Part shown: piece by piece, positions 7,509-50,944 of the stretch | Numbering within the stretch: the stretch's first letter is position 1 | How the letters are laid out: every line of letters begins with the position of its first letter | Assembly (NCBI GenBank): GCA_002010305.1 | Contig: MTND01000026.1 | Coordinates: forward strand, 78,236-142,235 | Source of the DNA: Archaeoglobi archaeon JdFR-42 | GTDB taxonomy: Archaea > Halobacteriota > Archaeoglobi > Archaeoglobales > JdFR-42 | Reading direction: 5' to 3' | DNA length: 64,000 nucleotides | The notes under the pieces: model-generated | What the model was told of the DNA's origin: nothing | The model's database searches: none | The model's input: only the letters and a program-made list of their open reading frames with translations | Program-made: the position numbers and the translations under genes

Positions 7509-8561
7509 TTAAACTTTTTGGTCTCCCAGTTCTTTCAACATAACCCGGGTACTCCGATTAAAAGCTATTTCTCCAATGGACTTACTGCTTTTCACTATAC
7601 TGTGAAGATTTTCAAGGACAAGTCTGAGATACAAAGAGATATCCCGATCGAGATTTTCATTGAGAATCTTCTCTTTGATAAACTCTACAATTTTGTTTTC
7701 TATCTCAATAAACCTCCGGATGGACATCTCAGAATTCATCAGGTTTTCTGCGAAAAAACTATCAGTTACCTGTTCAAAGGAATCAAAAACCAGTTTCATA
7801 AGATCTATAAGATCGTCTAGGATCGACTGTTCCACATCCATTTCTATAACGTGACTGGCATAATGGGCTATCGCTGAAATATTATCTCCGATCTCCTCAA
7901 GATATTTAGCCACCAACCGGTGGCCAAGAATAAGTCTAAGCTCATCCCAGCCTCTCAACCCAGAAATCCTTCTGAGTATTTTATTTTCTTGCCTAACTGC
8001 AAGGAGATACAACCGGTCTGCATCTTTCTCAAACCGGACTATGGAATTTACAACTTCCAGATCTCTTTCCTTGAAAATAGATTTCAACCCAGAATACATA
8101 GAAATGATTAGCTGGGCAAGCCTCCTCAAAACCTCTTCTATGGGCAGACCCTCAATAGTCAGACAGCGTATTACGATCTCCTTCGATGAGACACTTATAA
8201 TTTCCATCCCTACGAGCTCTCTGACAATTTCACTGAGAGCACCTATGATCTTTGGATCTATTTTTTCGCCTACAATCTGAATCTGATCTACTCCCAGAAT
8301 ATAATGGGCATAAATGTATCTTCTGAGAAAATCTTCATCTTCCATGGGAAAGCGAGATATTCTCGCAATTTCATCTCCAATATCCTGAATCTGGAGATGC
8401 TCAGGCAATATTTTAAGACTGCCATCTGGTTCCCTTACAAGGAGTATGGTATCTCCCTGTGAAAGCTCATTGGATTTTATCCAGTCTTTTGGTAGACTCA
8501 CCATATAACTTGAACCGCCTATAAATTGCAATTTCCTGTATTCAGTTTCTCTTTCCTCCAC
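7509..8561 (-). CDS. AbrB/SpoVT-domain plus PhoU-repeat regulator (archaeal PhoU-like)
   Basis: 350 aa. The N-terminal 'GGSSYMVSLPKDWIKSNELSQGDTILL' is a swapped-hairpin AbrB-type motif, followed by helical PhoU-like repeats. Confidence 0.75.
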   Translation of the reverse strand: MEERETEYRKLQFIGGSSYMVSLPKDWIKSNELSQGDTILLVREPDGSLKILPEHLQIQDIGDEIARISRFPMEDEDFLRRYIYAHYILGVDQIQIVGEKIDPKIIGALSEIVRELVGMEIISVSSKEIVIRCLTIEGLPIEEVLRRLAQLIISMYSGLKSIFKERDLEVVNSIVRFEKDADRLYLLAVRQENKILRRISGLRGWDELRLILGHRLVAKYLEEIGDNISAIAHYASHVIEMDVEQSILDDLIDLMKLVFDSFEQVTDSFFAENLMNSEMSIRRFIEIENKIVEFIKEKILNENLDRDISLYLRLVLENLHSIVKSSKSIGEIAFNRSTRVMLKELGDQKV

Positions 8562-24760: not shown

Positions 24761-24883
24761 AAGATGATGATGTTATTTTCCAATAATTGCAGTATTTATG
24801 GGAATAAAAAGGTTAAAGTAAGTTGAACCCTTATGAATTATTATTAACTTCGTTAACAATCTGTGAATTGGAGGATTTACGAT

Positions 24884-27262
24884 ATGGTGAAAGTCAGAGG
24901 ACTGCTGCTGGATGTAGATTATATAACAAAAAATGGGAAAGCCATCCTCAGACTGTGGTGTAAAAGAGAAGATGGTAATATATTCATTGTTTATGATAGC
25001 TCCTTTAAACCATATTTTTACGTGATTCCTCTTGGAGAAATCACTTCTAAAAACCTAGAGGAAGTCGAGGTTGATTTCAGAGGCCAGAAAGTCACTCCGT
25101 TAAAGGTAGAGGTAGAAAAGAGGAAGGATTCTGGTGTGTGGAGTGACGTGTACAAAATCTACGCCAGACATCCCCAGCATGTTCCGAAACTAAGAGAGTA
25201 TTACTCAAGGTTTTGCGACGTAAGAGAGGCAGATATACCTTTTGTGTTCCGATATTTGATAGATAGAGGTCTGACACCTTTAGAATGGATTGAAGTGGAT
25301 GGAGATATAGATAACAGGAAGTTTCTAGAGATTAATGCTCAAACCATTCAGAAAATTGAAGGGGATGCAGATATACCCCTGAAAGTCATGGCCTTTGATT
25401 GTGAAATGCTAAATGAATATGGTATGCCTGATCCCAAGAAATCACCTATCATCCTAATTTCCGTTAAGATGGGGGATGAGGAGATTCTACTCGAAGCTGA
25501 TGGAGATGATGACCGGAGATTGATTGAAGAGTTCCTTTCATTAATACAGGAAAAAGATCCCGATATAATTACAGGCTATAATCAGGATTCTTTTGACTGG
25601 CCATATCTGAGAGAGAGGGCGAGACTTCACAGCATTAAACTGGCAGTAGGCAGGGACGGGAGTGAACCTAGATTCACTGGAGGTATACGGAAAGTTGACC
25701 TTGTAGGGAGGTTGAACATTGATCTGTATTCCATTGTTGAAAGGGACCTTGACATAAAGCTCAAAACACTGGATAATGTCGCTGAATATTTCGGAAAAAA
25801 ACAAGGGATATCTGATATAAAGGCATCAGATATCTACTATCTCTGGACCTCTGGCGATAGGGAAGAGGTGAAACGATATTCCATTCAAGATGCCATTCAC
25901 ACCTATGAAATCGGTAAAGAGCTCCTCCCCATTCAGTATGAGCTAACAAGGATGATAGGACTCCCATTGGATGAAGTCTCCAGAATGGGAAGGGGTAGAC
26001 AGGTAGAATGGCTACTCATCAAAGAGAGTTTCAGGCTCGAGGAACTGGTACCTGCCAGAAGAGGGGATCATTCATCCTATGAAGGTGCTTTCGTCCTCGA
26101 ACCACAAAGAGAGCTTCACGAGCATGTAGTCTGTCTTGACTTTGCTTCCATGTATCCATCCATAATGGTGGCCTTCAATATCTCACCTGATACTCTGACA
26201 GAAGATTGTGATGATTGCCACGTAGCTCCCGAAGTCGGTCATAAATTCAGAAAAAGCCCTGACGGATTTTTCAAAAGAATTCTTATTAAGCTAATAAATG
26301 GAAGAAAGGAGATCAAAGAGCGTATGAAAACTCTGAGTCCATCAGATCCAGAATACAGAATGCTCGACATTAGACAACAGATACTGAAGATACTTACTAA
26401 CTCATTCTATGGTTACACAGGGTGGAGTGAGGCAAAATGGTACAGGCAGGAGTGTGCTGAAGCAACTGCTGCATGGGGCAGGGATTTCATACGTAGATCC
26501 ATGGAAGTTGCCAAGCAAAATGGTTTTTCAGTCCTCTATGGAGACACTGACAGCCTGTTCGTTAAGAAGGATGATCTGGACATGGATCGACTCATAAAAG
26601 AGGTAGAAAAGCTCATAGATAATTTAGCACCCATTTTACCCGTAAGGTTGGAGATAGATGAAGTCTATAAAACCATATTTTTTACAGATAAAAAAAGATA
26701 TGCTGGATTAACACAAGATGAGCGTATAATAGTAAAAGGCTTGGAGGTTAGACGAGGAGACTGGTGTGAACTGGCAAAACGCATACAGTCTGAAATTATA
26801 GAGATTATTCTCAAAGAGAGGAGTCCAGAGAGAGCAGCTCAGGTGGTTCAGGATGTAATTCAGAAGATAAAAAACGCGGATGTGGAGCTGGAAGATCTCG
26901 TTATATACAAGACCCTGACGAAGAAGATTTCAGAATACGATTCCATGCAGGCACATGTCAGAGCGGCAGAGAGAGCCAGGCAGATGAACCTGATATATCA
27001 TGTGGGCTCAAAAATAGGTTTTGTTGTGGTAAAGGGCCATGGAACTGTAAGTGAAAGGGCTTATCCAATAGAGATGTTTGACGAATTCAGAAATGGAATA
27101 CTAAAAGAGAAACATAGCAATCAACAGTATCGTATCGACTTAGATTACTATATAGACCATCAGATACTCCCTGTTGCTCTGAGAATCTTGGGATTTTTTG
27201 GGTATACCAAAGATAAGTTAAAGCAAAAACCAGAACAAATGACGCTGGATTTTTTCAGTTGA
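24884..27262 (+). CDS. polB: DNA polymerase, family B
   Basis: It has Exo I 'FDCEM', Pol motifs 'SMYPSI' and 'YGDTDS', and 'KKRYAG'. I chose the ATG at 24884, preceded by 'GGAGGA'. No intein is present. Confidence 0.95.
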   Translation: MVKVRGLLLDVDYITKNGKAILRLWCKREDGNIFIVYDSSFKPYFYVIPLGEITSKNLEEVEVDFRGQKVTPLKVEVEKRKDSGVWSDVYKIYARHPQHVPKLREYYSRFCDVREADIPFVFRYLIDRGLTPLEWIEVDGDIDNRKFLEINAQTIQKIEGDADIPLKVMAFDCEMLNEYGMPDPKKSPIILISVKMGDEEILLEADGDDDRRLIEEFLSLIQEKDPDIITGYNQDSFDWPYLRERARLHSIKLAVGRDGSEPRFTGGIRKVDLVGRLNIDLYSIVERDLDIKLKTLDNVAEYFGKKQGISDIKASDIYYLWTSGDREEVKRYSIQDAIHTYEIGKELLPIQYELTRMIGLPLDEVSRMGRGRQVEWLLIKESFRLEELVPARRGDHSSYEGAFVLEPQRELHEHVVCLDFASMYPSIMVAFNISPDTLTEDCDDCHVAPEVGHKFRKSPDGFFKRILIKLINGRKEIKERMKTLSPSDPEYRMLDIRQQILKILTNSFYGYTGWSEAKWYRQECAEATAAWGRDFIRRSMEVAKQNGFSVLYGDTDSLFVKKDDLDMDRLIKEVEKLIDNLAPILPVRLEIDEVYKTIFFTDKKRYAGLTQDERIIVKGLEVRRGDWCELAKRIQSEIIEIILKERSPERAAQVVQDVIQKIKNADVELEDLVIYKTLTKKISEYDSMQAHVRAAERARQMNLIYHVGSKIGFVVVKGHGTVSERAYPIEMFDEFRNGILKEKHSNQQYRIDLDYYIDHQILPVALRILGFFGYTKDKLKQKPEQMTLDFFS

Positions 27263-31422: not shown

Positions 31423-31468
31423 TTTTACAGGCATAAGGTTTTTATTTTTAACAACATACCTATAATTG

Positions 31469-31915
31469 ATGGAAAAGCAATACAGATACCCTATAGAATT
31501 CGTAAAGCATTATTATATATCGGTGATTGGAGGGTTCAGTCCCGAACTCGACAGGAGAGAGGTGGGAATTAACCGGGATGCAATTCAATACAATACAGAA
31601 CTCGTAGGCTATCACGATACGGTTATACTGAGAAGGGTAAGGGGAGGTAAGATAAAACCATTTTTTATGAAGAGGCCTTACACACTTATTCCTCTGGATG
31701 AACAGACTCCTGCATCAGTGGAGAAGTCCAGATCTGGAGAAGTTGTTCTTTCGGAGAAACTCCTAGATGAACTGGAAAAGAAAAATATCATCCGAAACCC
31801 ATACATGACTCCATGTATCGGTGAGGAGATCCTGATAAACTCCACTGTCACTAAATTACTGAACGAGAGATGGTTGGAACGTATGGCAGCTAAATATTTT
31901 GGAAGAGTAAACTGA
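31469..31915 (+). CDS. Hypothetical protein
   Basis: 148-aa ORF starting at ATG 31469. No family was recognised. Confidence 0.5.
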   Translation: MEKQYRYPIEFVKHYYISVIGGFSPELDRREVGINRDAIQYNTELVGYHDTVILRRVRGGKIKPFFMKRPYTLIPLDEQTPASVEKSRSGEVVLSEKLLDELEKKNIIRNPYMTPCIGEEILINSTVTKLLNERWLERMAAKYFGRVN

Positions 31916-31947
31916 TGGCTCAGGCCAATATTATTACAGGTGGAGAA

Positions 31948-31969
31948 GAGACTTTTTTCTTTTTGTCTC
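31948..31969 (+). terminator. Short hairpin enclosing a T-rich tract
   Basis: 'GAGAC-TTTTTTCTTTTT-GTCTC' lies 33 nt after the stop at 31915. Confidence 0.35.
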
Positions 31970-32040
31970 ATTATTTCAAACTTATTTCGTTAGAAACACC
32001 TAAATAGATTGCATTCATTAATTAAATATGGTGATATTCC

Positions 32041-33531
32041 ATGTCAGGATATATTGACATGGGATCCGGGTATCAACCCTCTTCCCGTGATATGGCTGAA
32101 GAGATGGCGGGACTTATTGAAAGATGGCTTGGAAATCCTGCTTCAAGAGCCATCCTGAAATTCTGCACTCATCGATGTGAGTGTGGGCGGAGGATTGAGC
32201 TGATCTTACTAAAATATGCTGGCGAAGATGTGGATCTATGTTTCAAATGTAATTTAGCCTACTCACTGGTAAAGAAGATACTGGATAGGATAACTTCCGT
32301 ATTCAATGTAGAAAGGGAGAAAATATCTACAAATCTTAGGGATGCCATGTGGAGGAAGGGATTGGCAAGTGTTCTCGAAGGTATTGCAGCATACGGCCCT
32401 GAGAAACCTTTTACTGCCTTTGCTCCTTTTCTTGTGGTATGGAATGTAACCAATGCCTGTAACTTGAAATGCAAGCACTGTTATCAGAATGCAGACAAAC
32501 CAACTTCTGACGAATTAACTACTGAAGAGGCTCTAATGGCTGTGGACAAGATGGCCGAAGCTGGAGTTGCTTATCTAGCCATTTCAGGGGGAGAGCCTTT
32601 GGTCCGAAAAGATTTCTTTACCATAGTTGAAAGAATTAAAGACAACGACATGGCATTCTCTTTAGCAACAAATGGAACTCTTCTTACTAAAAACAAAGTT
32701 AAAAGACTAGAAGAGAGTAACTGCCTGTTTATCCAAGTATCACTGGATGGAGCAAAACCAGAGACCCATAACACATTCAGAGGTAAAAATAGTTTCGAGA
32801 AAACGATAGAGGGGATTAAAAACGCAGTTGATTCCAGCATCACTGTTGGGATAGCCACAACGGTAACTAAATATAACTACAGGGAAGTCTTTGACATAAT
32901 AAATCTGGCTGAGAAACTTGGTGTGGATATTTTTATGCATTATAACTTCATCCCTACAGGAAGAGGGAAAGAAATGATGGAAATGGATCTATCCCCTGAA
33001 GAGAGAGAGGAATTCCTTAAAAAAATGGCGTCCCAAATACATGCAAGAGATATATCACTCCTCTCAACCGCTCCTCAGTATAGCAGGATATGCAGTGAAT
33101 TCTCTGCAGTGAGTCTGACTCATTTTGATACGTTCGGTCAGAGATCTCAGGGTGTGGATTTTCTGGCTGAATTTGTAGGTGGATGTGGTACGGGAAGGTT
33201 ATATTGTGCTCTCCAGCCGAATGGAGACATAACCCCATGTGTTTTTATTCCCATCGTTGTGGGAAACATAAAGCAGGATGATATTCTAGAGGTATGGCAT
33301 CACAGAGAAGAATTTAAAAAAATACGGGCAAGAGATGAGTTCGAAGGGTGTTCTCGTTGTGAGCATGTGACCATTTGTGGAGGATGCAGAGCCAGAGCTC
33401 TTGGATACTTTGGAGATTTGCAGGGTCCAGATCCAGGTTGCATCATAAATCGCAGATACTGGTGCCGCCTTGAGACTGAAAGTGTAGGAATTAATATAAA
33501 AATTCCTGAAAGAGAGAAGGCATATTCTTAA
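32041..33531 (+). CDS. Radical SAM/SPASM-domain enzyme with a Cys-rich N-terminal extension
   Basis: 496 aa. It has the radical-SAM 'CNLKCKHCY', a SPASM-type C-terminus ('CGTGRLYCALQPNGDITPC', 'CSRCEHVTICGGCRARA...DPGC') and an N-terminal 'CTHRCECG...CFKC'. Confidence 0.9.
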   Translation: MSGYIDMGSGYQPSSRDMAEEMAGLIERWLGNPASRAILKFCTHRCECGRRIELILLKYAGEDVDLCFKCNLAYSLVKKILDRITSVFNVEREKISTNLRDAMWRKGLASVLEGIAAYGPEKPFTAFAPFLVVWNVTNACNLKCKHCYQNADKPTSDELTTEEALMAVDKMAEAGVAYLAISGGEPLVRKDFFTIVERIKDNDMAFSLATNGTLLTKNKVKRLEESNCLFIQVSLDGAKPETHNTFRGKNSFEKTIEGIKNAVDSSITVGIATTVTKYNYREVFDIINLAEKLGVDIFMHYNFIPTGRGKEMMEMDLSPEEREEFLKKMASQIHARDISLLSTAPQYSRICSEFSAVSLTHFDTFGQRSQGVDFLAEFVGGCGTGRLYCALQPNGDITPCVFIPIVVGNIKQDDILEVWHHREEFKKIRARDEFEGCSRCEHVTICGGCRARALGYFGDLQGPDPGCIINRRYWCRLETESVGINIKIPEREKAYS

Positions 33532-34726: not shown

Positions 34727-35246
34727 AGAACCTTCAAATAGGGAGTGGAAAACTCTTTTAAAAGCCTTCAGGTATTATGGAATCTCCACTCCAGGGAATA
34801 TCATGATACTTGAATCCAGCAGCAGAAATGTATTATTGATGTCTCCATCTCTTATCCGTTATATCAAAGGTCTCAACAAAAACTCTAGAGAGGTTATCAC
34901 CTCAGCCGGAATAAAAATTGGGGAATTGGGGCGTAGATTCAGGATCTCCTTGGAAGGGGGAGAATTACTTTCCAAAGATGTATTAAAAAAGTGGATTATC
35001 GTAAGAGAGAGGGGAGAGATGCTCTTTTTGTATGGACGTGATATTTTCGGAACCTCTGTGGAAATCTGTTCTGGAGATATAGCAGAGAATGATTTGGTTT
35101 TTGTTTTCAACCGCAATCGTGGGTTTCTAGGCATAGGAAGAGCAAGAGTAGACGCTAAAAGAATGAAAGAAGACAGGGTAGTGGTGGAAAATCTTGTGGA
35201 TAAAGGAGAGTACCTTCGCAAGATCAACCTTTTCTCTTCCTTTTAG
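34701..35246 (+). CDS. NIP7-like PUA-domain protein (ribosome biogenesis, UPF0113)
   Basis: 'ERGEMLFLYGRDIF', 'LGIGRARV' and 'DKGEYLRK' are present. I chose the ATG at 34701, which overlaps the MFS 3' end by 26 nt. Confidence 0.65.
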   Translation: MPPEKLEIREPSNREWKTLLKAFRYYGISTPGNIMILESSSRNVLLMSPSLIRYIKGLNKNSREVITSAGIKIGELGRRFRISLEGGELLSKDVLKKWIIVRERGEMLFLYGRDIFGTSVEICSGDIAENDLVFVFNRNRGFLGIGRARVDAKRMKEDRVVVENLVDKGEYLRKINLFSSF

Positions 35247-36420
35247 TTTTCAATTTAACTTCATAATAAGATAATGGATGTGATATTTTTCCACATAGCC
35301 TGTCAGGATTGAAGCAATTATGGTAACTCTTCATGGTCTGGCAGGAGGGAGGTGTATAGATTTCTCCTCTACCACTTCTAATATGATTAACCTGATATCT
35401 GGTACGTTCTTCATCAAAATCCGGAGATGCTTTGTACACAGCCACCACATCCTCGACAGACATTCCCGTATTCAGCAAAAAAGACGTCAACGCAAATCTG
35501 GCAGAATGAGGTAAGTTAATTCCAGAACGTATATCCCCTATCATCCTTTTTATACATGGAGGGAAGCTTTCTACATCAACTTTCTCAAATCTAACTGGTT
35601 TGAAAGATTTTTTTACTTCTTTTAATTTCTTATCTATACTTTTAAGATACCTTTTCAGTTCATCGCAGTATACAGCCTTAAAGCTCTCCTCTATTTTGAT
35701 GCGTATAATCTCCTCAAGAGCTCTGATCAATTCACTTTTTGTAACGGTAACGTATCCCTTTGCCAGATCCCTAAAAAATAATTTCCATTCACCTTCTCGC
35801 AGGGAAGATGACACCTTCAGAAAATCAGAAATATGAAGCCGGATATTTCCCTCAAACTTGGCCCGAACTCCCAGATTTTTTGAAATAATCTTCAAAATTT
35901 CATCATCTTCACGATTTAAAAGTTTACCCGCTCTTTTGGACTCAAAAATTGCAAATCGTCTTTTAAGCCATCCATCCCCTGCACATCCAACAAGAACCAG
36001 AGAGAAATAAAAGGAGAGTATGGACAGTTTAATCTCTTTTAACCTCTCAATGTTAATAAAGTCTTCAAGGTAATCACACCCCTGAAGGCACCTTCCACAT
36101 CCAGAACATAGCTCATAGTTCCTCACTCCCTCAGGTCCTATAGCCTTCTCTGGACAGACTGAAATGCACGATATGAACTCACAGTCTCTGCAAGAAATAG
36201 TTTGTTGACTTCCTGATTTTTCCATTGTTTCATCTATTATACGCTCCATTTCTGAAAGAGAGCCCTCTATCACCTCGAGGACCTTTTCCAATCCCTCATT
36301 TCTGCAAGCTTGAAAAAATAAACTCTGATTTGAAACCAGATCCTCAAGGGAAACGTTAAGTTCGTTTGAAAGAGATACGAAAGATAAGAAAGGATATCTG
36401 GCAAGAATAAGCTCAAGCAT
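35224..36420 (-). CDS. priL: DNA primase large subunit PriL, with an extra ferredoxin-like Cys insertion
   Basis: 398 aa. It has the N-terminal 'ARYPFL' and a C-terminal Fe-S domain ('PPCIKRM', 'HSARFALTSFL', 'PPSCQTM', 'CFNPDRLCG'). An additional 8-Cys insert lies at residues 77-115. Confidence 0.9.
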   Translation of the reverse strand: MLELILARYPFLSFVSLSNELNVSLEDLVSNQSLFFQACRNEGLEKVLEVIEGSLSEMERIIDETMEKSGSQQTISCRDCEFISCISVCPEKAIGPEGVRNYELCSGCGRCLQGCDYLEDFINIERLKEIKLSILSFYFSLVLVGCAGDGWLKRRFAIFESKRAGKLLNREDDEILKIISKNLGVRAKFEGNIRLHISDFLKVSSSLREGEWKLFFRDLAKGYVTVTKSELIRALEEIIRIKIEESFKAVYCDELKRYLKSIDKKLKEVKKSFKPVRFEKVDVESFPPCIKRMIGDIRSGINLPHSARFALTSFLLNTGMSVEDVVAVYKASPDFDEERTRYQVNHIRSGRGEIYTPPSCQTMKSYHNCFNPDRLCGKISHPLSYYEVKLKTKRKRKG

Positions 36421-36423
36421 CGT

Positions 36424-37161
36424 TTATTCTGATTCTATTCTCGGCGCCAAGAGATACTCCACCTTCACTCTGCCATCTGCGATAGTAAACTCAAACCGGG
36501 CTGGGTAATCAGTACCAAGGTGTATGGTCACAAACTCACTCCTAGAAATGGGTTTTACAAACTCTTTCAGATAATCCAGCGAGAACATGCTCCTAGCAGT
36601 CTCAGGAACAAAATCTACCAGCTCCGCTTTTGTAAGAGAAAATACTATTTGATCCGTATCTCCTTCTGCCTCAATGTAAAAATTATTTTCATCAGTCTTT
36701 AGTACCACATGGTCACTTATTTTCTCTCCTGCCAGAATAGCCTTCTTAAAGTCATCAGTTTTCATAGTGATCCTAGCCGGCAACTCAAGATTTGGTACTT
36801 TTGGCTCTTTCCTTATGGCTGATGGATCAATAAGAGTATACGTGTATCTTAATCCGCTGAACTGTACTTTAAGGGTGTTGCTTCCCTCATCTATTACCAG
36901 CTCCACTTCATCTTCCTTTCTGGCCATTTTTAAGATGTCATACAGCCTATTTACATCTACTCCCACTTCAGCTTCTGTTGCGGAAAACGAGTCAAAAGCA
37001 TCTTTTTTCAGCTCTACCGAGACCATGGCTACATTTGCAGGATCTACAGCTCTGGAAACAACTCCTTCTTCAAGAATCCTGAATCTTGCTTCGGGAACAA
37101 GAGTGAGAATAGCCTCAATTCCAGTTCTCAAAATATCTGCGGAAATTAGGGCATCCAGCAT
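36424..37161 (-). CDS. pcn: DNA polymerase sliding clamp (PCNA)
   Basis: Archaeal PCNA pattern with start 'MLDALISADILR'. The C-terminus 'VEYLLAPRIESE' is typical. Confidence 0.93.
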   Translation of the reverse strand: MLDALISADILRTGIEAILTLVPEARFRILEEGVVSRAVDPANVAMVSVELKKDAFDSFSATEAEVGVDVNRLYDILKMARKEDEVELVIDEGSNTLKVQFSGLRYTYTLIDPSAIRKEPKVPNLELPARITMKTDDFKKAILAGEKISDHVVLKTDENNFYIEAEGDTDQIVFSLTKAELVDFVPETARSMFSLDYLKEFVKPISRSEFVTIHLGTDYPARFEFTIADGRVKVEYLLAPRIESE

Positions 37162-37335
37162 TTTAACCTCTCCACACACTCCTGATGGTTGAGGATTGTG
37201 CACAACCTTTGCTCATAGGTTGCTGTATCCTGTATATATCTTTTTCTTAAAGTCCCTGAAGAGACTTTACAAGCCCGGTGAATTAGTAGTCTAGAAGTTC
37301 AGGCAAGAAGATGTGAAAAAGATATGACGATAAGT

Positions 37336-49912: not shown

Positions 49913-50944
49913 TCAAATAGAGCCTTCCAGAAGAGCAGATTTTCCATATTCTGTAATTGAATACACCACTCTATCGTCTTTTTTGGTAGCAATAACAAGG
50001 CCCATACTTTCCAGTTCTTTGAGATGCTGGTATATAGCCTGAAAAGAGATTTCCTTTATATGAGACATCCATTTCCATAAGACGTACCCATGAGACGGGT
50101 TTCTATAGAGGTTTCTCAGAATCATAAGCTTGGTTTCTGTAAGAGAGTGTGTGTGAGATTTAAAGCGGCCTGCCACTATACAAACGATTGAATTTCCCTT
50201 TACTTTTCTTGCACCAGCATATGAGGCAGATGCAGAAGCACTGGCTAATATTCCTTCCTTTGCAAGATTCTCCTGGGCTTCAAGGATTTCCTTCTCGTTA
50301 ACATATACTAGCTTAACCATTCCTTTCTCTTGTAGCTGCATTACCTCTTTAAGGAAGTGATTATGTCCAACCAGATAGGATGCGATGCTCGAATCTTTGC
50401 CAGTAGATGATTCTGGCATCACCCCGAAAAACATAGGTGATTTCTTAGCTAGACCCATATTAACCATCTCAATGCTGGCTCTAACACTCATAACTAGGTG
50501 GCTCCCACTCCCTACCGGCAATACAACTGATTCAGGTTCTATCTCTTCAAGAATCTCGTAGGTGGTTGTCTTCTCTCCCACATGCATGTTCAGGTTACGA
50601 AGGAGAGTATCTTCTTCTTCCTTAGCTGTTTTTGCACCCAAAAGTAGAAGAGGTAGATTTGTTTCACTGGTCACAAATTCAATACCAGCTTTAGAACAAT
50701 ATGAAGCAAGAGAGACAATACGATCGTAATCCCAGTTGCACACAATTTTGTTTTTGCCAGTACTCTTAAGATACGATACAAAAAAAGCAGAAAATCTATC
50801 TTCAAAACTTCCTGTAGGATTTATGCGCTCATCCTTGATGAATATACCATTTGAATCCTCATAGAGTGGTGTGCCTCCTTCTCCAAGAGTCAATTGGTAT
50901 TTAAGAGAAGGAAGGAGTTCCCTATATTTCCATATGCCCTTCAC
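49913..50944 (-). CDS. Threonine-synthase-like (fold-type II PLP) domain lacking the catalytic Lys, fused to a PadR-type wHTH; putative transcriptional regulator
   Basis: 343 aa with a GTG start. ThrC-like features are 'WKYRELLP', 'LGEGGTPL', 'NPTGSFEDRF' (E48 where the canonical sequence is SFKDR) and 'PVGSGS'. The C-terminal 'NPSHGYVLWKWM...IYQHLKELESMGLV...YSITEYG' is PadR-like. Confidence 0.8.
   Translation of the reverse strand: MKGIWKYRELLPSLKYQLTLGEGGTPLYEDSNGIFIKDERINPTGSFEDRFSAFFVSYLKSTGKNKIVCNWDYDRIVSLASYCSKAGIEFVTSETNLPLLLLGAKTAKEEEDTLLRNLNMHVGEKTTTYEILEEIEPESVVLPVGSGSHLVMSVRASIEMVNMGLAKKSPMFFGVMPESSTGKDSSIASYLVGHNHFLKEVMQLQEKGMVKLVYVNEKEILEAQENLAKEGILASASASASYAGARKVKGNSIVCIVAGRFKSHTHSLTETKLMILRNLYRNPSHGYVLWKWMSHIKEISFQAIYQHLKELESMGLVIATKKDDRVVYSITEYGKSALLEGSI

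What the first reader, a model, noticed from the sequence alone, without database searches (positions are those of the whole stretch)
36076..36192. Ferredoxin-type 8-cysteine insertion in the N-terminal domain of primase large subunit PriL
Residues 77-115 read 'C-RD-C-EFIS-C-ISV-CP EKAIGPEGVRNYEL C-SG-C-GR-C-LQG-C-D'. This gives C-x2-C-x4-C-x3-CP followed by C-x2-C-x2-C-x3-C, the spacing of a 2x[4Fe-4S] clostridial-type ferredoxin module. It lies between the conserved 'ARYPFL' start and the helical core of the PriL N-terminal domain. It is additional to the canonical C-terminal PriL Fe-S domain ('PPCIKRM', 'PPSCQTM', 'CFNPDRLCG'). PriL proteins I know carry only the C-terminal cluster. A primase with up to three clusters would bear on the debated redox and DNA charge-transport roles of primase Fe-S centres.
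Basis: partly seen in the sequence, partly recalled or inferred. Interest (0 to 1): 0.55.

Follow-up and report, generated by a model that had tools for sequence, protein, structure and literature searches.

The report
Ferredoxin-like iron-sulfur module inside primase PriL
The regulatory subunit of this archaeon's replicative DNA primase carries a roughly 60-residue insertion that looks by sequence like a two-cluster iron-sulfur ferredoxin module; the insertion is shared by the whole class Archaeoglobi, cultured species included, and I found no paper describing it.

Summary
Window 36076-36192 (- strand) encodes residues 77-115 of a 398-aa PriL (35224-36420, -). They read C-x2-C-x4-C-x3-CP-x14-C-x2-C-x2-C-x3-C.

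- **Bona fide PriL.** It has the canonical C-terminal Fe-S ligands (C289, C360, C369, C376). It sits 3 nt downstream of PCNA, as in most related genomes.
- **Insertion.** The Cys module lies in a ~61-residue insertion (residues ~60-120) that other archaeal PriLs lack.
- **Ferredoxin homology.** A profile of 30 such insertions matches solved [4Fe-4S] dicluster modules (E 2e-8 to 3e-7). All eight Cys and the Ala of 'CPxxA' align with them.
- **Distribution.** It is not unique to this genome. It occurs only in Archaeoglobi-type PriLs, in three states: full 8-Cys (this window, Ferroglobus, Geoglobus), compact 8-Cys (A. veneficus, A. neptunius), and 4-Cys remnants (A. profundus).
- **Degeneration pattern.** Remnants keep C1-C3 and C8 and lose C4-C7. 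That is the ligand set of one cluster in ferredoxin cross-ligation, which favours Fe-S over zinc.
- **Limits.** AlphaFold models of the insertion were low-confidence, so the fold and the metal content are untested.
- **Likely role.** An accessory structural or regulatory Fe-S domain, like the ferredoxin-like domain of RNA polymerase subunit Rpo3.

I rate it a new variant of a known kind, of moderate interest.

The parts
35224..36420 (-). PriL gene: DNA primase large (regulatory) subunit, 398 aa
   Evidence: ORF. Pfam DNA_primase_lrg covers residues 194-380 at 9.9e-32. NCBIfam PriL equivalog models reach 1.6e-100. The AF2 model has mean pLDDT 86 and Foldseek hits to PriL chains 5of3_B, 1zt2, 8foh_B and others.
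36061..36243 (-). Lineage-specific insertion (residues ~60-120) in the loop between two helices of the PriL N-terminal domain: a short helix followed by the 8-Cys module
   Evidence: In alignment A1 the insertion-less PriLs are gapped across these residues. AF2 secondary structure shows helix 55-68, then a poorly ordered 69-123, then helix 124-147.
36151..36192 (-). Cys motif 1, C77-x2-C80-x4-C85-x3-C89-P90. Predicted ligands: C77, C80 and C85 to cluster I, C89 to cluster II
   Evidence: These Cys are invariant. They align to cluster-ligating Cys of solved ferredoxin modules. The ligand assignment is inferred from the canonical ferredoxin topology.
36139..36150 (-). 'EKAI' following C89-P90 (the CPxxAI signature). 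Ala93 is the only non-Cys residue invariant in the 30 full-type insertions
   Evidence: Invariant column A25 of alignment A6 corresponds to Ala93. It aligns with the 'CPtGA' of solved modules.
36076..36108 (-). Cys motif 2, C105-x2-C108-x2-C111-x3-C115. Predicted ligands: C105, C108 and C111 to cluster II, C115 to cluster I
   Evidence: Invariant. Pfam Fer4 and Fer4_6 hits cover residues 100-116.
35281..35841 (-). Canonical PriL core and C-terminal Fe-S domain with ligands C289 (35554-35556), C360 (35341-35343), C369 (35314-35316) and C376 (35293-35295)
   Evidence: PF04104 match at residues 194-380. The four Cys are invariant across 120 PriLs. Coordinates.
36424..37203 (-). PCNA sliding-clamp gene immediately upstream in the same orientation, with a 3-nt gap to the PriL ATG. 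The likely true start gives 245 aa (36424-37161)
   Evidence: NCBIfam DNA polymerase sliding clamp at 3.4e-94, aligned from residue 15. Gene calls. PCNA lies directly upstream of PriL in 19/19 insertion-bearing loci and 56/61 insertion-less loci.

Best explanation
This is the housekeeping PriL of an Archaeoglobi-related archaeon. A ferredoxin-type dicluster module was inserted into a loop of the N-terminal (PriS-scaffolding) domain in an ancestor of the class and has been kept since.

In the window's protein the module most likely binds two [4Fe-4S] clusters in the canonical cross-ligated way. Cluster I would use C77, C80, C85 and C115. Cluster II would use C105, C108, C111 and C89. With the C-terminal cluster, PriL would then carry three clusters.

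Its most likely role is accessory, not catalytic. I propose an Fe-S-dependent structural or assembly element whose integrity depends on anaerobic, reducing conditions. It would stabilise or tune the PriL N-terminal domain and its partnerships, by analogy with the ferredoxin-like domain of archaeal RNA polymerase subunit Rpo3.

Shown here: the insertion itself, its homology to Fer4 dicluster modules, its restriction to Archaeoglobi, its three evolutionary states, and orthology through PCNA-PriL synteny. Inferred: metal identity, cluster number, ligand assignment and function.
For: 1. **Homology to Fe-S modules.** The window's 57-aa segment passes the Pfam gathering cut-offs for LdpA_Fe-S-bd (30.0 vs 27.6 bits, E 4.5e-7) and Fer4 (21.4 vs 21.1 bits). 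Of the 30 full-type insertions, 18 hit LdpA_Fe-S-bd, 17 hit Fer4_6 and 15 hit Fer4. NCBIfam matches residues 59-128 to DsrO (3.5e-7), DmsB, NrfC, TtrB and others.
2. **Match to solved structures.** A profile of the 30 insertions matches solved dicluster modules: 9mqx_E at 2.1e-8, MvhB 9sw6_G at 3.4e-8, ArrB 6cz7_B at 8.6e-8 and HycB3 at 2.7e-7. All eight Cys and the Ala of CPxxA are in register.
3. **Linker length is compatible.** The 15-residue linker falls within the range of solved modules. MvhB has 14 residues between C19 and C34 in the printed alignment.
4. **Strong purifying selection.** The eight Cys are invariant across sequences only 19-48% identical in the N-terminal region.
5. **Degeneration pattern.** All 18 aligned remnant sequences keep Cys at the C1, C2 and C8 positions. 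Most also keep C3, while C4-C7 are deleted. This is the ligand set of one cluster under ferredoxin cross-ligation, not the loss of one self-contained Cys4 zinc site.
6. **Orthology.** PCNA is directly upstream in 19/19 insertion-bearing loci. A neighbour-joining tree groups the window clade as sister to all other Archaeoglobi PriLs.
7. **Precedent.** The Rpo3 ferredoxin-like domain binds one or two [4Fe-4S] clusters. It varies by lineage, with cluster 1 retained more often than cluster 2. It is non-essential but needed for efficient RNA polymerase assembly (PMC5300874).
Against: No structure supports the fold. AF2 gave pLDDT ~55 for residues 70-120 in the full-length model and 53.8 for the isolated insertion. 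Foldseek on the isolated model found nothing significant.

The second motif ends in C-D rather than C-P. In the full-length context the Fer4-family scores fall below the Pfam cut-offs.

The compact 8-Cys relatives (linker 7-10, C-x2-C-x3-C-x2-C) barely match Fer4 models, and only in their second half. At least in those, a canonical ferredoxin fold is doubtful and other metal sites are possible.

The function is inferred purely by analogy. The position of the insertion relative to PriS, DNA or the C-terminal domain could not be examined.
Confidence: 0.7

Rival explanations
1. The eight cysteines form zinc sites (for example two Zn(Cys)4 knuckles). These would be a purely structural cross-brace for a surface loop of a thermophile protein, with no iron-sulfur cluster.
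For: Cys4 motifs can bind Zn. The compact relatives (C-x2-C-x3-C-x2-C-x8-C-x2-C-x2-C-x3-C) are too short for a textbook ferredoxin fold and hardly match Fer4 models. AF2 does not produce a confident ferredoxin fold. Two of the 30 full-type segments give weak zinc-finger Pfam hits at E ~0.003-0.007.
Against: The full-type profile matches solved Fe-S modules at E ~1e-8, with all eight Cys and the CPxxA Ala aligned. No zinc-ribbon family appears among the significant hits. Remnant forms lose C4-C7 and keep C1-C3 plus C8. Two independent Cys4 zinc sites would be expected to be lost as C1-C4 or C5-C8 units.
Confidence: 0.15
2. The module binds only one cluster, or one [4Fe-4S] plus a degenerate or [3Fe-4S] site. 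The second site would be vestigial even in the 8-Cys forms.
For: Cluster-I ligands are the ones retained in all remnant forms. The second motif lacks the trailing Pro. In Rpo3, cluster 1 is likewise the better conserved and more important one.
Against: C89, C105, C108 and C111 are invariant in all 30 full-type and 29 compact sequences analysed. That is hard to explain if they ligate nothing.
Confidence: 0.1
3. The module is a working electron wire. Two low-potential clusters would relay electrons between cellular ferredoxin or other redox partners and the C-terminal PriL cluster or DNA, making priming redox-gated.
For: Dicluster ferredoxin modules are classic electron-transfer units. The closest solved relatives (HycB, MvhB, ArrB) are wires in redox enzymes. 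The top Pfam family is the Fe-S domain of LdpA, which I recall from the literature as a redox-sensing clock protein.
Against: No redox partner is encoded next to the gene; its neighbours are PCNA, TFS, a Nudix protein and a PUA protein. The module has been halved or compacted in several Archaeoglobi lineages and is absent from all other archaea. It therefore cannot be integral to the priming chemistry. Nothing shows that it lies within electron-transfer distance of the C-terminal cluster.
Confidence: 0.1

Closest known systems
Canonical archaeal/eukaryotic PriL (Pfam PF04104; structures 1ZT2, 5OF3, 2DLA, 4RR2)
   Same: Same two-domain architecture: a helical N-terminal domain and a C-terminal domain with four conserved Cys for one [4Fe-4S] cluster. 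Same PCNA-PriL synteny as related Halobacteriota genomes. The fold of the model matches PriL structures.
   Different: About 61 extra residues with eight invariant Cys are inserted between two N-terminal helices. The 123 non-Archaeoglobi-type PriLs collected have 0-3 scattered Cys in that region and no insertion.
2x[4Fe-4S] ferredoxin-type modules of DmsB/NrfC/HybA/HycB-type subunits and polyferredoxin MvhB (Pfam Fer4 clan; PDB 9mqx_E, 9sw6_G, 6cz7_B, 7qv7_A)
   Same: The C-x2-C-x4-C-x3-CP-x2-A...C-x2-C-x2-C-x3-C pattern. Profile E-values are 2e-8 to 3e-7, with all eight ligand Cys aligned. The short inter-motif linker is comparable to an MvhB module.
   Different: It is a single module embedded in a non-redox replication protein. 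The linker (13-15 residues in most, 15 here) is about 4-6 residues shorter than in the best DmsB-type hits. The second motif lacks the terminal Pro. The fold is not confirmed.
Ferredoxin-like domain (FLD, domain 3) of archaeal RNA polymerase subunit Rpo3/D (Lessner lab; PMC5300874)
   Same: A ferredoxin-like one- or two-cluster domain grafted onto an information-processing protein with no redox chemistry. Its presence varies by lineage, with cluster 1 kept more often than cluster 2. Two-cluster forms occur only in strict anaerobes. The role is accessory, in assembly and stability. PriL shows the same full, reduced and single-site series.
   Different: A different host protein and insertion site. 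The Rpo3 FLD is widespread across archaea and some eukaryotes, whereas the PriL module is confined to Archaeoglobi. Cluster binding and function are experimentally shown for Rpo3 but not for PriL. Common ancestry of the two modules was not tested.
LdpA Fe-S cluster-binding domain (Pfam PF25160)
   Same: The best-scoring Pfam family for the window's insertion: 30.0 bits against a cut-off of 27.6 on the isolated segment. It was also precomputed for this protein in the public collection.
   Different: The match covers only ~32 of 49 profile positions around C85-C115. The rest of LdpA is absent. The resemblance shows a shared Fer4-type motif, not a shared function.

Membership tests
PriL (archaeo-eukaryotic primase large subunit) | Significant match to the PriL core domain model (PF04104 / NCBIfam PriL models) | tested here: met
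   PF04104 at 9.9e-32, 110.8 bits against a 22.4-bit cut-off. NCBIfam PriL models reach E 1.6e-100 but 336.9 bits, below the strict equivalog cut-off of 439. The shortfall is consistent with a divergent, insertion-bearing member.
PriL (archaeo-eukaryotic primase large subunit) | Four conserved Cys of the C-terminal [4Fe-4S] domain | tested here: met
   C289, C360, C369 and C376 are invariant in a 120-sequence alignment.
PriL (archaeo-eukaryotic primase large subunit) | PriL three-dimensional fold | tested here: met
   AF2 mean pLDDT 86.2. Foldseek probability 1.00 to 5of3_B, 1zt2_B/D, 8foh_B, 4rr2_D and 2dla.
PriL (archaeo-eukaryotic primase large subunit) | Forms the PriS-PriL heterodimer and supports primer synthesis | not testable with these tools
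   No PriS gene was found among the ten large window ORFs scanned. Biochemistry is required.
2x[4Fe-4S] ferredoxin-type (Fer4 dicluster) domain | Two Cys motifs of the CxxCxxCxxxC(P) kind, eight ligand Cys in all | tested here: met
   C-x2-C-x4-C-x3-CP and C-x2-C-x2-C-x3-C. The x4 variant of motif 1 is the one seen in the aligned DmsB/HycB-type solved modules. Motif 2 lacks the final Pro.
2x[4Fe-4S] ferredoxin-type (Fer4 dicluster) domain | Sequence-profile match at or above curated thresholds | tested here: met
   Isolated segment: PF25160 at 30.0 bits (cut-off 27.6) and PF00037 at 21.4 bits (cut-off 21.1). The pass is marginal: in the full-length protein the same hits fall below the cut-offs. 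Independent support comes from the profile search against the PDB at E 2e-8.
2x[4Fe-4S] ferredoxin-type (Fer4 dicluster) domain | The (beta-alpha-beta)2 ferredoxin fold with cross-ligated clusters | tested here: inconclusive
   AF2 pLDDT ~55 and 53.8 for the insertion. Foldseek gave no hit with E <= 0.001. Indirect support: remnant forms keep C1-C3 plus C8.
2x[4Fe-4S] ferredoxin-type (Fer4 dicluster) domain | Actually binds iron-sulfur clusters | not testable with these tools
   Needs metal analysis, UV-vis and EPR of anaerobically purified protein.
Zinc ribbon / zinc knuckle | Match to a zinc-binding family model, or paired CxxC...CxxC knuckles lost or gained as units | tested here: not met
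   Only 2 of 30 members give weak zinc-finger hits (E 0.0035 and 0.007), against 15-18 of 30 for Fer4-type families. The loss pattern does not follow Cys4 units.
Rpo3-type accessory ferredoxin-like domain (functional analogue, not claimed as homologue) | Lineage-variable one- or two-cluster FLD in a non-redox nucleic-acid enzyme, with preferential retention of one cluster site | tested here: met
   Among 257 unique full-length PriLs there are 42 full 8-Cys, 64 compact 8-Cys, 28 remnant and 123 insertion-less forms. Cluster-I ligands are retained in the remnants. The Rpo3 pattern is taken from PMC5300874.
Rpo3-type accessory ferredoxin-like domain (functional analogue, not claimed as homologue) | Clusters needed for efficient complex assembly or stability | not testable with these tools
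   Requires genetics or biochemistry.

The most novel reading that the evidence does not exclude
Archaeoglobi primase is a three-cluster enzyme. The N-terminal ferredoxin module would accept or donate electrons (for example from the cellular ferredoxin pool) and communicate with the C-terminal [4Fe-4S] cluster. Primer synthesis, or hand-off, would then be gated by the cell's redox and energy state. The natural series of three-, two- and one-cluster PriLs within one class would provide a ready-made test bed for the disputed redox-switch model of primase Fe-S clusters.
Probability: 0.1. Interest if true: 0.85.

Novelty: new variant of a known kind. Interest (0 to 1): 0.55.

Why it matters
The role of the primase iron-sulfur cluster is unresolved: it may be structural, or it may act as a redox switch or in DNA charge transport. 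Cluster-less mutants of one archaeal primase remain active (PMC10250227).

A whole archaeal class now appears to carry a second Fe-S module, ferredoxin-like and probably holding two clusters, on the other domain of PriL. The module comes in full, compact and single-site forms. This gives an evolutionary natural experiment and tractable proteins from cultured organisms (Ferroglobus placidus, Geoglobus acetivorans, Archaeoglobus species). With them one can ask what extra clusters do for a primase.

It also adds a second case, after RNA polymerase Rpo3, of strict anaerobes decorating core information-processing enzymes with ferredoxin-like domains. That hints at a general link between Fe-S or redox status and the assembly of replication and transcription machines.

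There is a practical point as well. Aerobic purification of Archaeoglobus PriSL for biochemistry may yield protein with damaged N-terminal clusters.

Tried and rejected
- **Word-indexed profile search.** Searching with the N-terminal alignment returned only one partial protein and not even the query sequences. It was uninformative and one search was wasted.
- **The search for related loci with the N-terminal alignment.** The full-length alignment was used instead.
- **Structure prediction.** The full-length AF2 model is good for PriL but gives only ~55 pLDDT for the insertion. The isolated insertion with a 30-sequence alignment gave 53.8. Foldseek on it gave no significant match, only weak hits to Fe-S proteins that are probably sequence-driven. 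I draw no structural conclusion.
- **Literature.** Seven full-text searches found no description of an N-terminal Fe-S or ferredoxin insertion in PriL. The paper that purified A. fulgidus PriSL (Jozwiakowski et al. 2015, PNAS) is not held, so I could not check whether extra iron was noticed there.
- **Organism name.** A search for the assembly accession found nothing, and the assembly's proteins carry no organism label. I know only that the record is GCA_003935005.1 / RSFX01000006.1. The closest species-level genome, at 50% PriL identity, is labelled 'Archaeoglobaceae archaeon'.
- **Paralogue or artefact.** I considered a second, specialised PriL paralogue or an assembly or frameshift artefact and rejected both. 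PCNA-PriL synteny is conserved. The identical protein occurs in independent assemblies. More than 100 homologous clusters carry the insertion.
- **A. fulgidus DSM 4304.** I could not confirm the state of the insertion in the type strain. Only MAG-derived proteins labelled A. fulgidus were seen, and they have the compact 8-Cys form.
Full report
**1. The observation**

The ORF at window 35224..36420 on the minus strand encodes a 398-aa protein. Translating 36076-36192 (-) gives CRDCEFISCISVCPEKAIGPEGVRNYELCSGCGRCLQGC, which is residues 77-115. The pattern is C77-x2-C80-x4-C85-x3-C89-P, then 15 residues, then C105-x2-C108-x2-C111-x3-C115.

Eight of these 39 residues are Cys, against 1.9% in the rest of the protein. 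The binomial tail is 7.5e-7. Only 202 of 200,000 shuffles of the protein's own residues give such a window. The identical protein is encoded on contigs from an NCBI assembly (GCA_003935005.1, RSFX01000006.1), a Logan run and a JGI metagenome. The sequence is therefore real.

**2. The host protein is the housekeeping PriL**

- Pfam DNA_primase_lrg matches residues 194-380 at 9.9e-32. NCBIfam PriL models match at up to 1.6e-100.
- The four C-terminal cluster ligands (C289, C360, C369, C376) are invariant in a 120-sequence alignment.
- An AF2 model has mean pLDDT 86. It matches PriL chains of S. solfataricus, yeast, Xenopus, human and Pyrococcus primases with Foldseek probability 1.00.
- The gene starts 3 nt after the stop of a PCNA gene on the same strand. 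PCNA lies directly upstream of PriL in 19/19 insertion-bearing loci and 56/61 insertion-less loci. This is the orthologous replicative PriL, not a paralogue.

**3. It is an insertion**

In an alignment with insertion-less PriLs from Methanosarcinales, Methanomassiliicoccales and other Halobacteriota, residues ~60-120 face a gap. The gap lies between the 'RGKERV..IE.G' helix and the 'LSYPFARILVS' helix. AF2 places a helix at 55-68, a poorly ordered stretch at 69-123, and the next long helix at 124-147.

**4. What the insertion resembles**

- In the full-length protein the insertion gives sub-threshold hits to LdpA_Fe-S-bd (1.2e-5) and to many Fer4 families.
- Residues 59-128 also hit NCBIfam DsrO (3.5e-7), DmsB, NrfC, TtrB, ArrB, HybA and PorD.
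- Scanned on its own, the 57-aa segment passes the Pfam cut-offs for LdpA_Fe-S-bd (30.0 vs 27.6 bits) and Fer4 (21.4 vs 21.1 bits). Of 30 'full-type' insertions, 18 hit LdpA_Fe-S-bd, 17 hit Fer4_6 and 15 hit Fer4.
- A profile of those 30 segments, searched against all PDB sequences, finds 33 chains, all of them Fe-S proteins. The best are 9mqx_E (2.1e-8), polyferredoxin MvhB 9sw6_G (3.4e-8), arsenate reductase ArrB 6cz7_B (8.6e-8) and HycB3 7qv7_A (2.7e-7).
- In the printed alignments all eight Cys and the Ala of 'CPxxA' are in register with the cluster-binding motifs.
- That Ala is the only non-Cys residue invariant in the 30 segments.
- The C-x2-C-x4-C-x3-CP form of motif 1 is the one seen in these DmsB/HycB-type modules. 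'Clostridial-type' is therefore slightly inexact.
- The linker (15 residues here, 13 in most relatives) is shorter than in the best hits. It is comparable to an MvhB module, which has 14 residues between C19 and C34 in the printed alignment.

**5. Distribution**

- Among the top 120 PriL homologues of the window protein, only eight carry the 8-Cys block.
- An exhaustive HMMER scan of 1.84 billion representative proteins with the N-terminal profile found only 11 clusters at E < 1e-10. All are of the same PriL type.
- A scan of one genome per species found 19 insertion-bearing loci among the best 80. All are labelled Archaeoglobus, Archaeoglobaceae, Archaeoglobales or 'uncultured archaeon'. Methanosarcinales, Methanothrix, Methanocellales, Methanoperedens, ANME-1 and Methanoliparia loci lack the insertion.
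- Searching with the Ferroglobus-type sequence recovered about 108 further Archaeoglobi-type clusters. After them the E-value drops sharply, from 1.7e-61 to 2.4e-46.
- The cultured species among the hits are Ferroglobus placidus DSM 10642, Geoglobus acetivorans, A. veneficus, A. neptunius and A. profundus.
- The closest species-level genome to the window is labelled 'Archaeoglobaceae archaeon', with 50% PriL identity.
- A crude neighbour-joining tree, with insertion columns removed, places the window clade as sister to all other Archaeoglobi PriLs. This fits a single ancestral gain.

**6. Three evolutionary states**

Among 257 unique full-length PriLs collected:

| State | Count | Pattern | Examples |
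|---|---|---|---|
| Full 8-Cys | 42 | Linker >= 13 residues, mostly C2C4C3C-13-C2C2C3C | This window, Ferroglobus, Geoglobus |
| Compact 8-Cys | 64 | Linker 7-12 residues, e.g. C2C3C2C-8-C2C2C3C | A. veneficus, A. neptunius, A. fulgidus-labelled MAGs |
| Remnant | 28 | 4-5 Cys | A. profundus and relatives |
| No module | 123 | 0-3 scattered Cys | All non-Archaeoglobi |

- Full and compact profiles are clearly homologous (hhalign probability 98.5%, E 2.5e-15).
- The compact forms barely match Fer4 models, and only in their second half.
- In a joint alignment all 18 remnants keep Cys at the C1, C2 and C8 positions and have lost C4-C7. C8 sits within the conserved 'F.NC.Y' context. Most also keep C3.
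- In a canonical 2x[4Fe-4S] ferredoxin (established knowledge), cluster I is ligated by C1, C2, C3 and C8, and cluster II by C5, C6, C7 and C4.
- The remnants therefore retain exactly one cluster's ligand set. That is expected for a cross-ligated Fe-S module and not for two independent Cys4 zinc sites.

**7. What could not be shown**

AF2 gives low confidence for the insertion, both in context (about 55 pLDDT) and alone (53.8). Foldseek on the isolated model found nothing significant. The fold, the metal identity and the spatial relation to PriS, DNA or the C-terminal cluster remain untested.

**8. Mechanism proposed**

Most likely (about 0.7 for the Fe-S identity), the module binds two [4Fe-4S] clusters, giving PriL three in total. 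Function is inferred by analogy with the ferredoxin-like domain of archaeal RNA polymerase subunit Rpo3.

- That domain binds one or two [4Fe-4S] clusters.
- It varies by lineage, with cluster 1 kept preferentially.
- It has two clusters only in strict anaerobes.
- It is dispensable for viability but needed for efficient polymerase assembly (PMC5300874).

I therefore favour an accessory structural, assembly or redox-integrity role. Rival readings are zinc sites (about 0.15), a single functional cluster (about 0.1) and a true electron wire to the C-terminal cluster (about 0.1). The wire model is weakened by the absence of redox partners nearby. It is also weakened by the repeated reduction or loss of the module within the class.

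**9. Novelty**

The sequences are public and automatic pipelines have attached a weak Fe-S Pfam label to this protein. Seven full-text searches found no paper describing an N-terminal Fe-S or ferredoxin module in PriL. Reviews of archaeal replication that mention A. fulgidus primase do not mention it either. The paper that purified A. fulgidus PriSL is not held.

I classify it as a new variant of a known kind: PriL plus an accessory ferredoxin-like domain. It is a class-wide trait, not a peculiarity of this genome.

**10. Verdict**

The motif is of the DmsB/polyferredoxin type. The trait is a synapomorphy of Archaeoglobi, including cultured species. It exists in full, compact and single-site forms whose degeneration pattern itself argues for Fe-S binding. 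Interest is moderate (0.55): it is experimentally tractable and relevant to the debate on primase Fe-S clusters, but the function is unknown and the structural evidence is inconclusive.

Noticed in passing
window 36421-36423 (PCNA 36424-37203 and PriL 35224-36420, both on the - strand): PCNA and PriL are separated by only 3 nt and probably form an operon. The PCNA-PriL order is conserved in 75 of 80 related loci from Archaeoglobi and other Halobacteriota.
   Followed up: yes
window 35224-35246: The 3' end of PriL (- strand) overlaps by about 23 nt the 3' end of the convergent pre-PUA/NIP7-PUA gene (+ strand, ends at 35246).
   Followed up: no
window 32041-33531 (+), with upstream ORFs at 31466-31915 and 31915-32007: A radical SAM/SPASM protein of the AhbD/NirJ type (6e-75, far below equivalog cut-offs) has a ~130-residue N-terminal extension. 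It is preceded by an AF_0059-family gene and a called 30-aa ORF (MAQANIITGGEETFFFLSHYFKLISLETPK) that contains no Cys. Whether this is a peptide-maturase pair or a heme-pathway enzyme is unclear.
   Followed up: partly
window 49913-50944 (-): This 343-aa ORF combines a partial PLP-dependent enzyme (PALP) match at residues 118-259 with a C-terminal PadR-type transcriptional regulator domain at residues 275-338. It may be an unusual fusion or a mis-joined ORF.
   Followed up: no
window 7509-8561 (-): A 350-aa protein with an N-terminal MazE/AbrB-type DNA-binding domain fused to PhoU domains.
   Followed up: no
window 24863-27262 (+): A family-B DNA polymerase gene lies about 8 kb from the PCNA-PriL pair. 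No PriS gene was found among the ten large window ORFs scanned.
   Followed up: partly
related proteins P0281, P0143, P0275 (A. profundus type) and P0220-P0261: There are two different 4-Cys remnant designs within Archaeoglobi: C-x2-C-x5-C-x5-C and C-x2-C-x4-C-x13-C. This suggests the second cluster site was lost at least twice independently.
   Followed up: partly
L054 (Archaeoglobus sp. JdFR-22) and a few proteins: In some members the second motif reads C-x2-CC-x-C-x3-C, with an extra adjacent Cys. This is a variant of unknown meaning.
   Followed up: no
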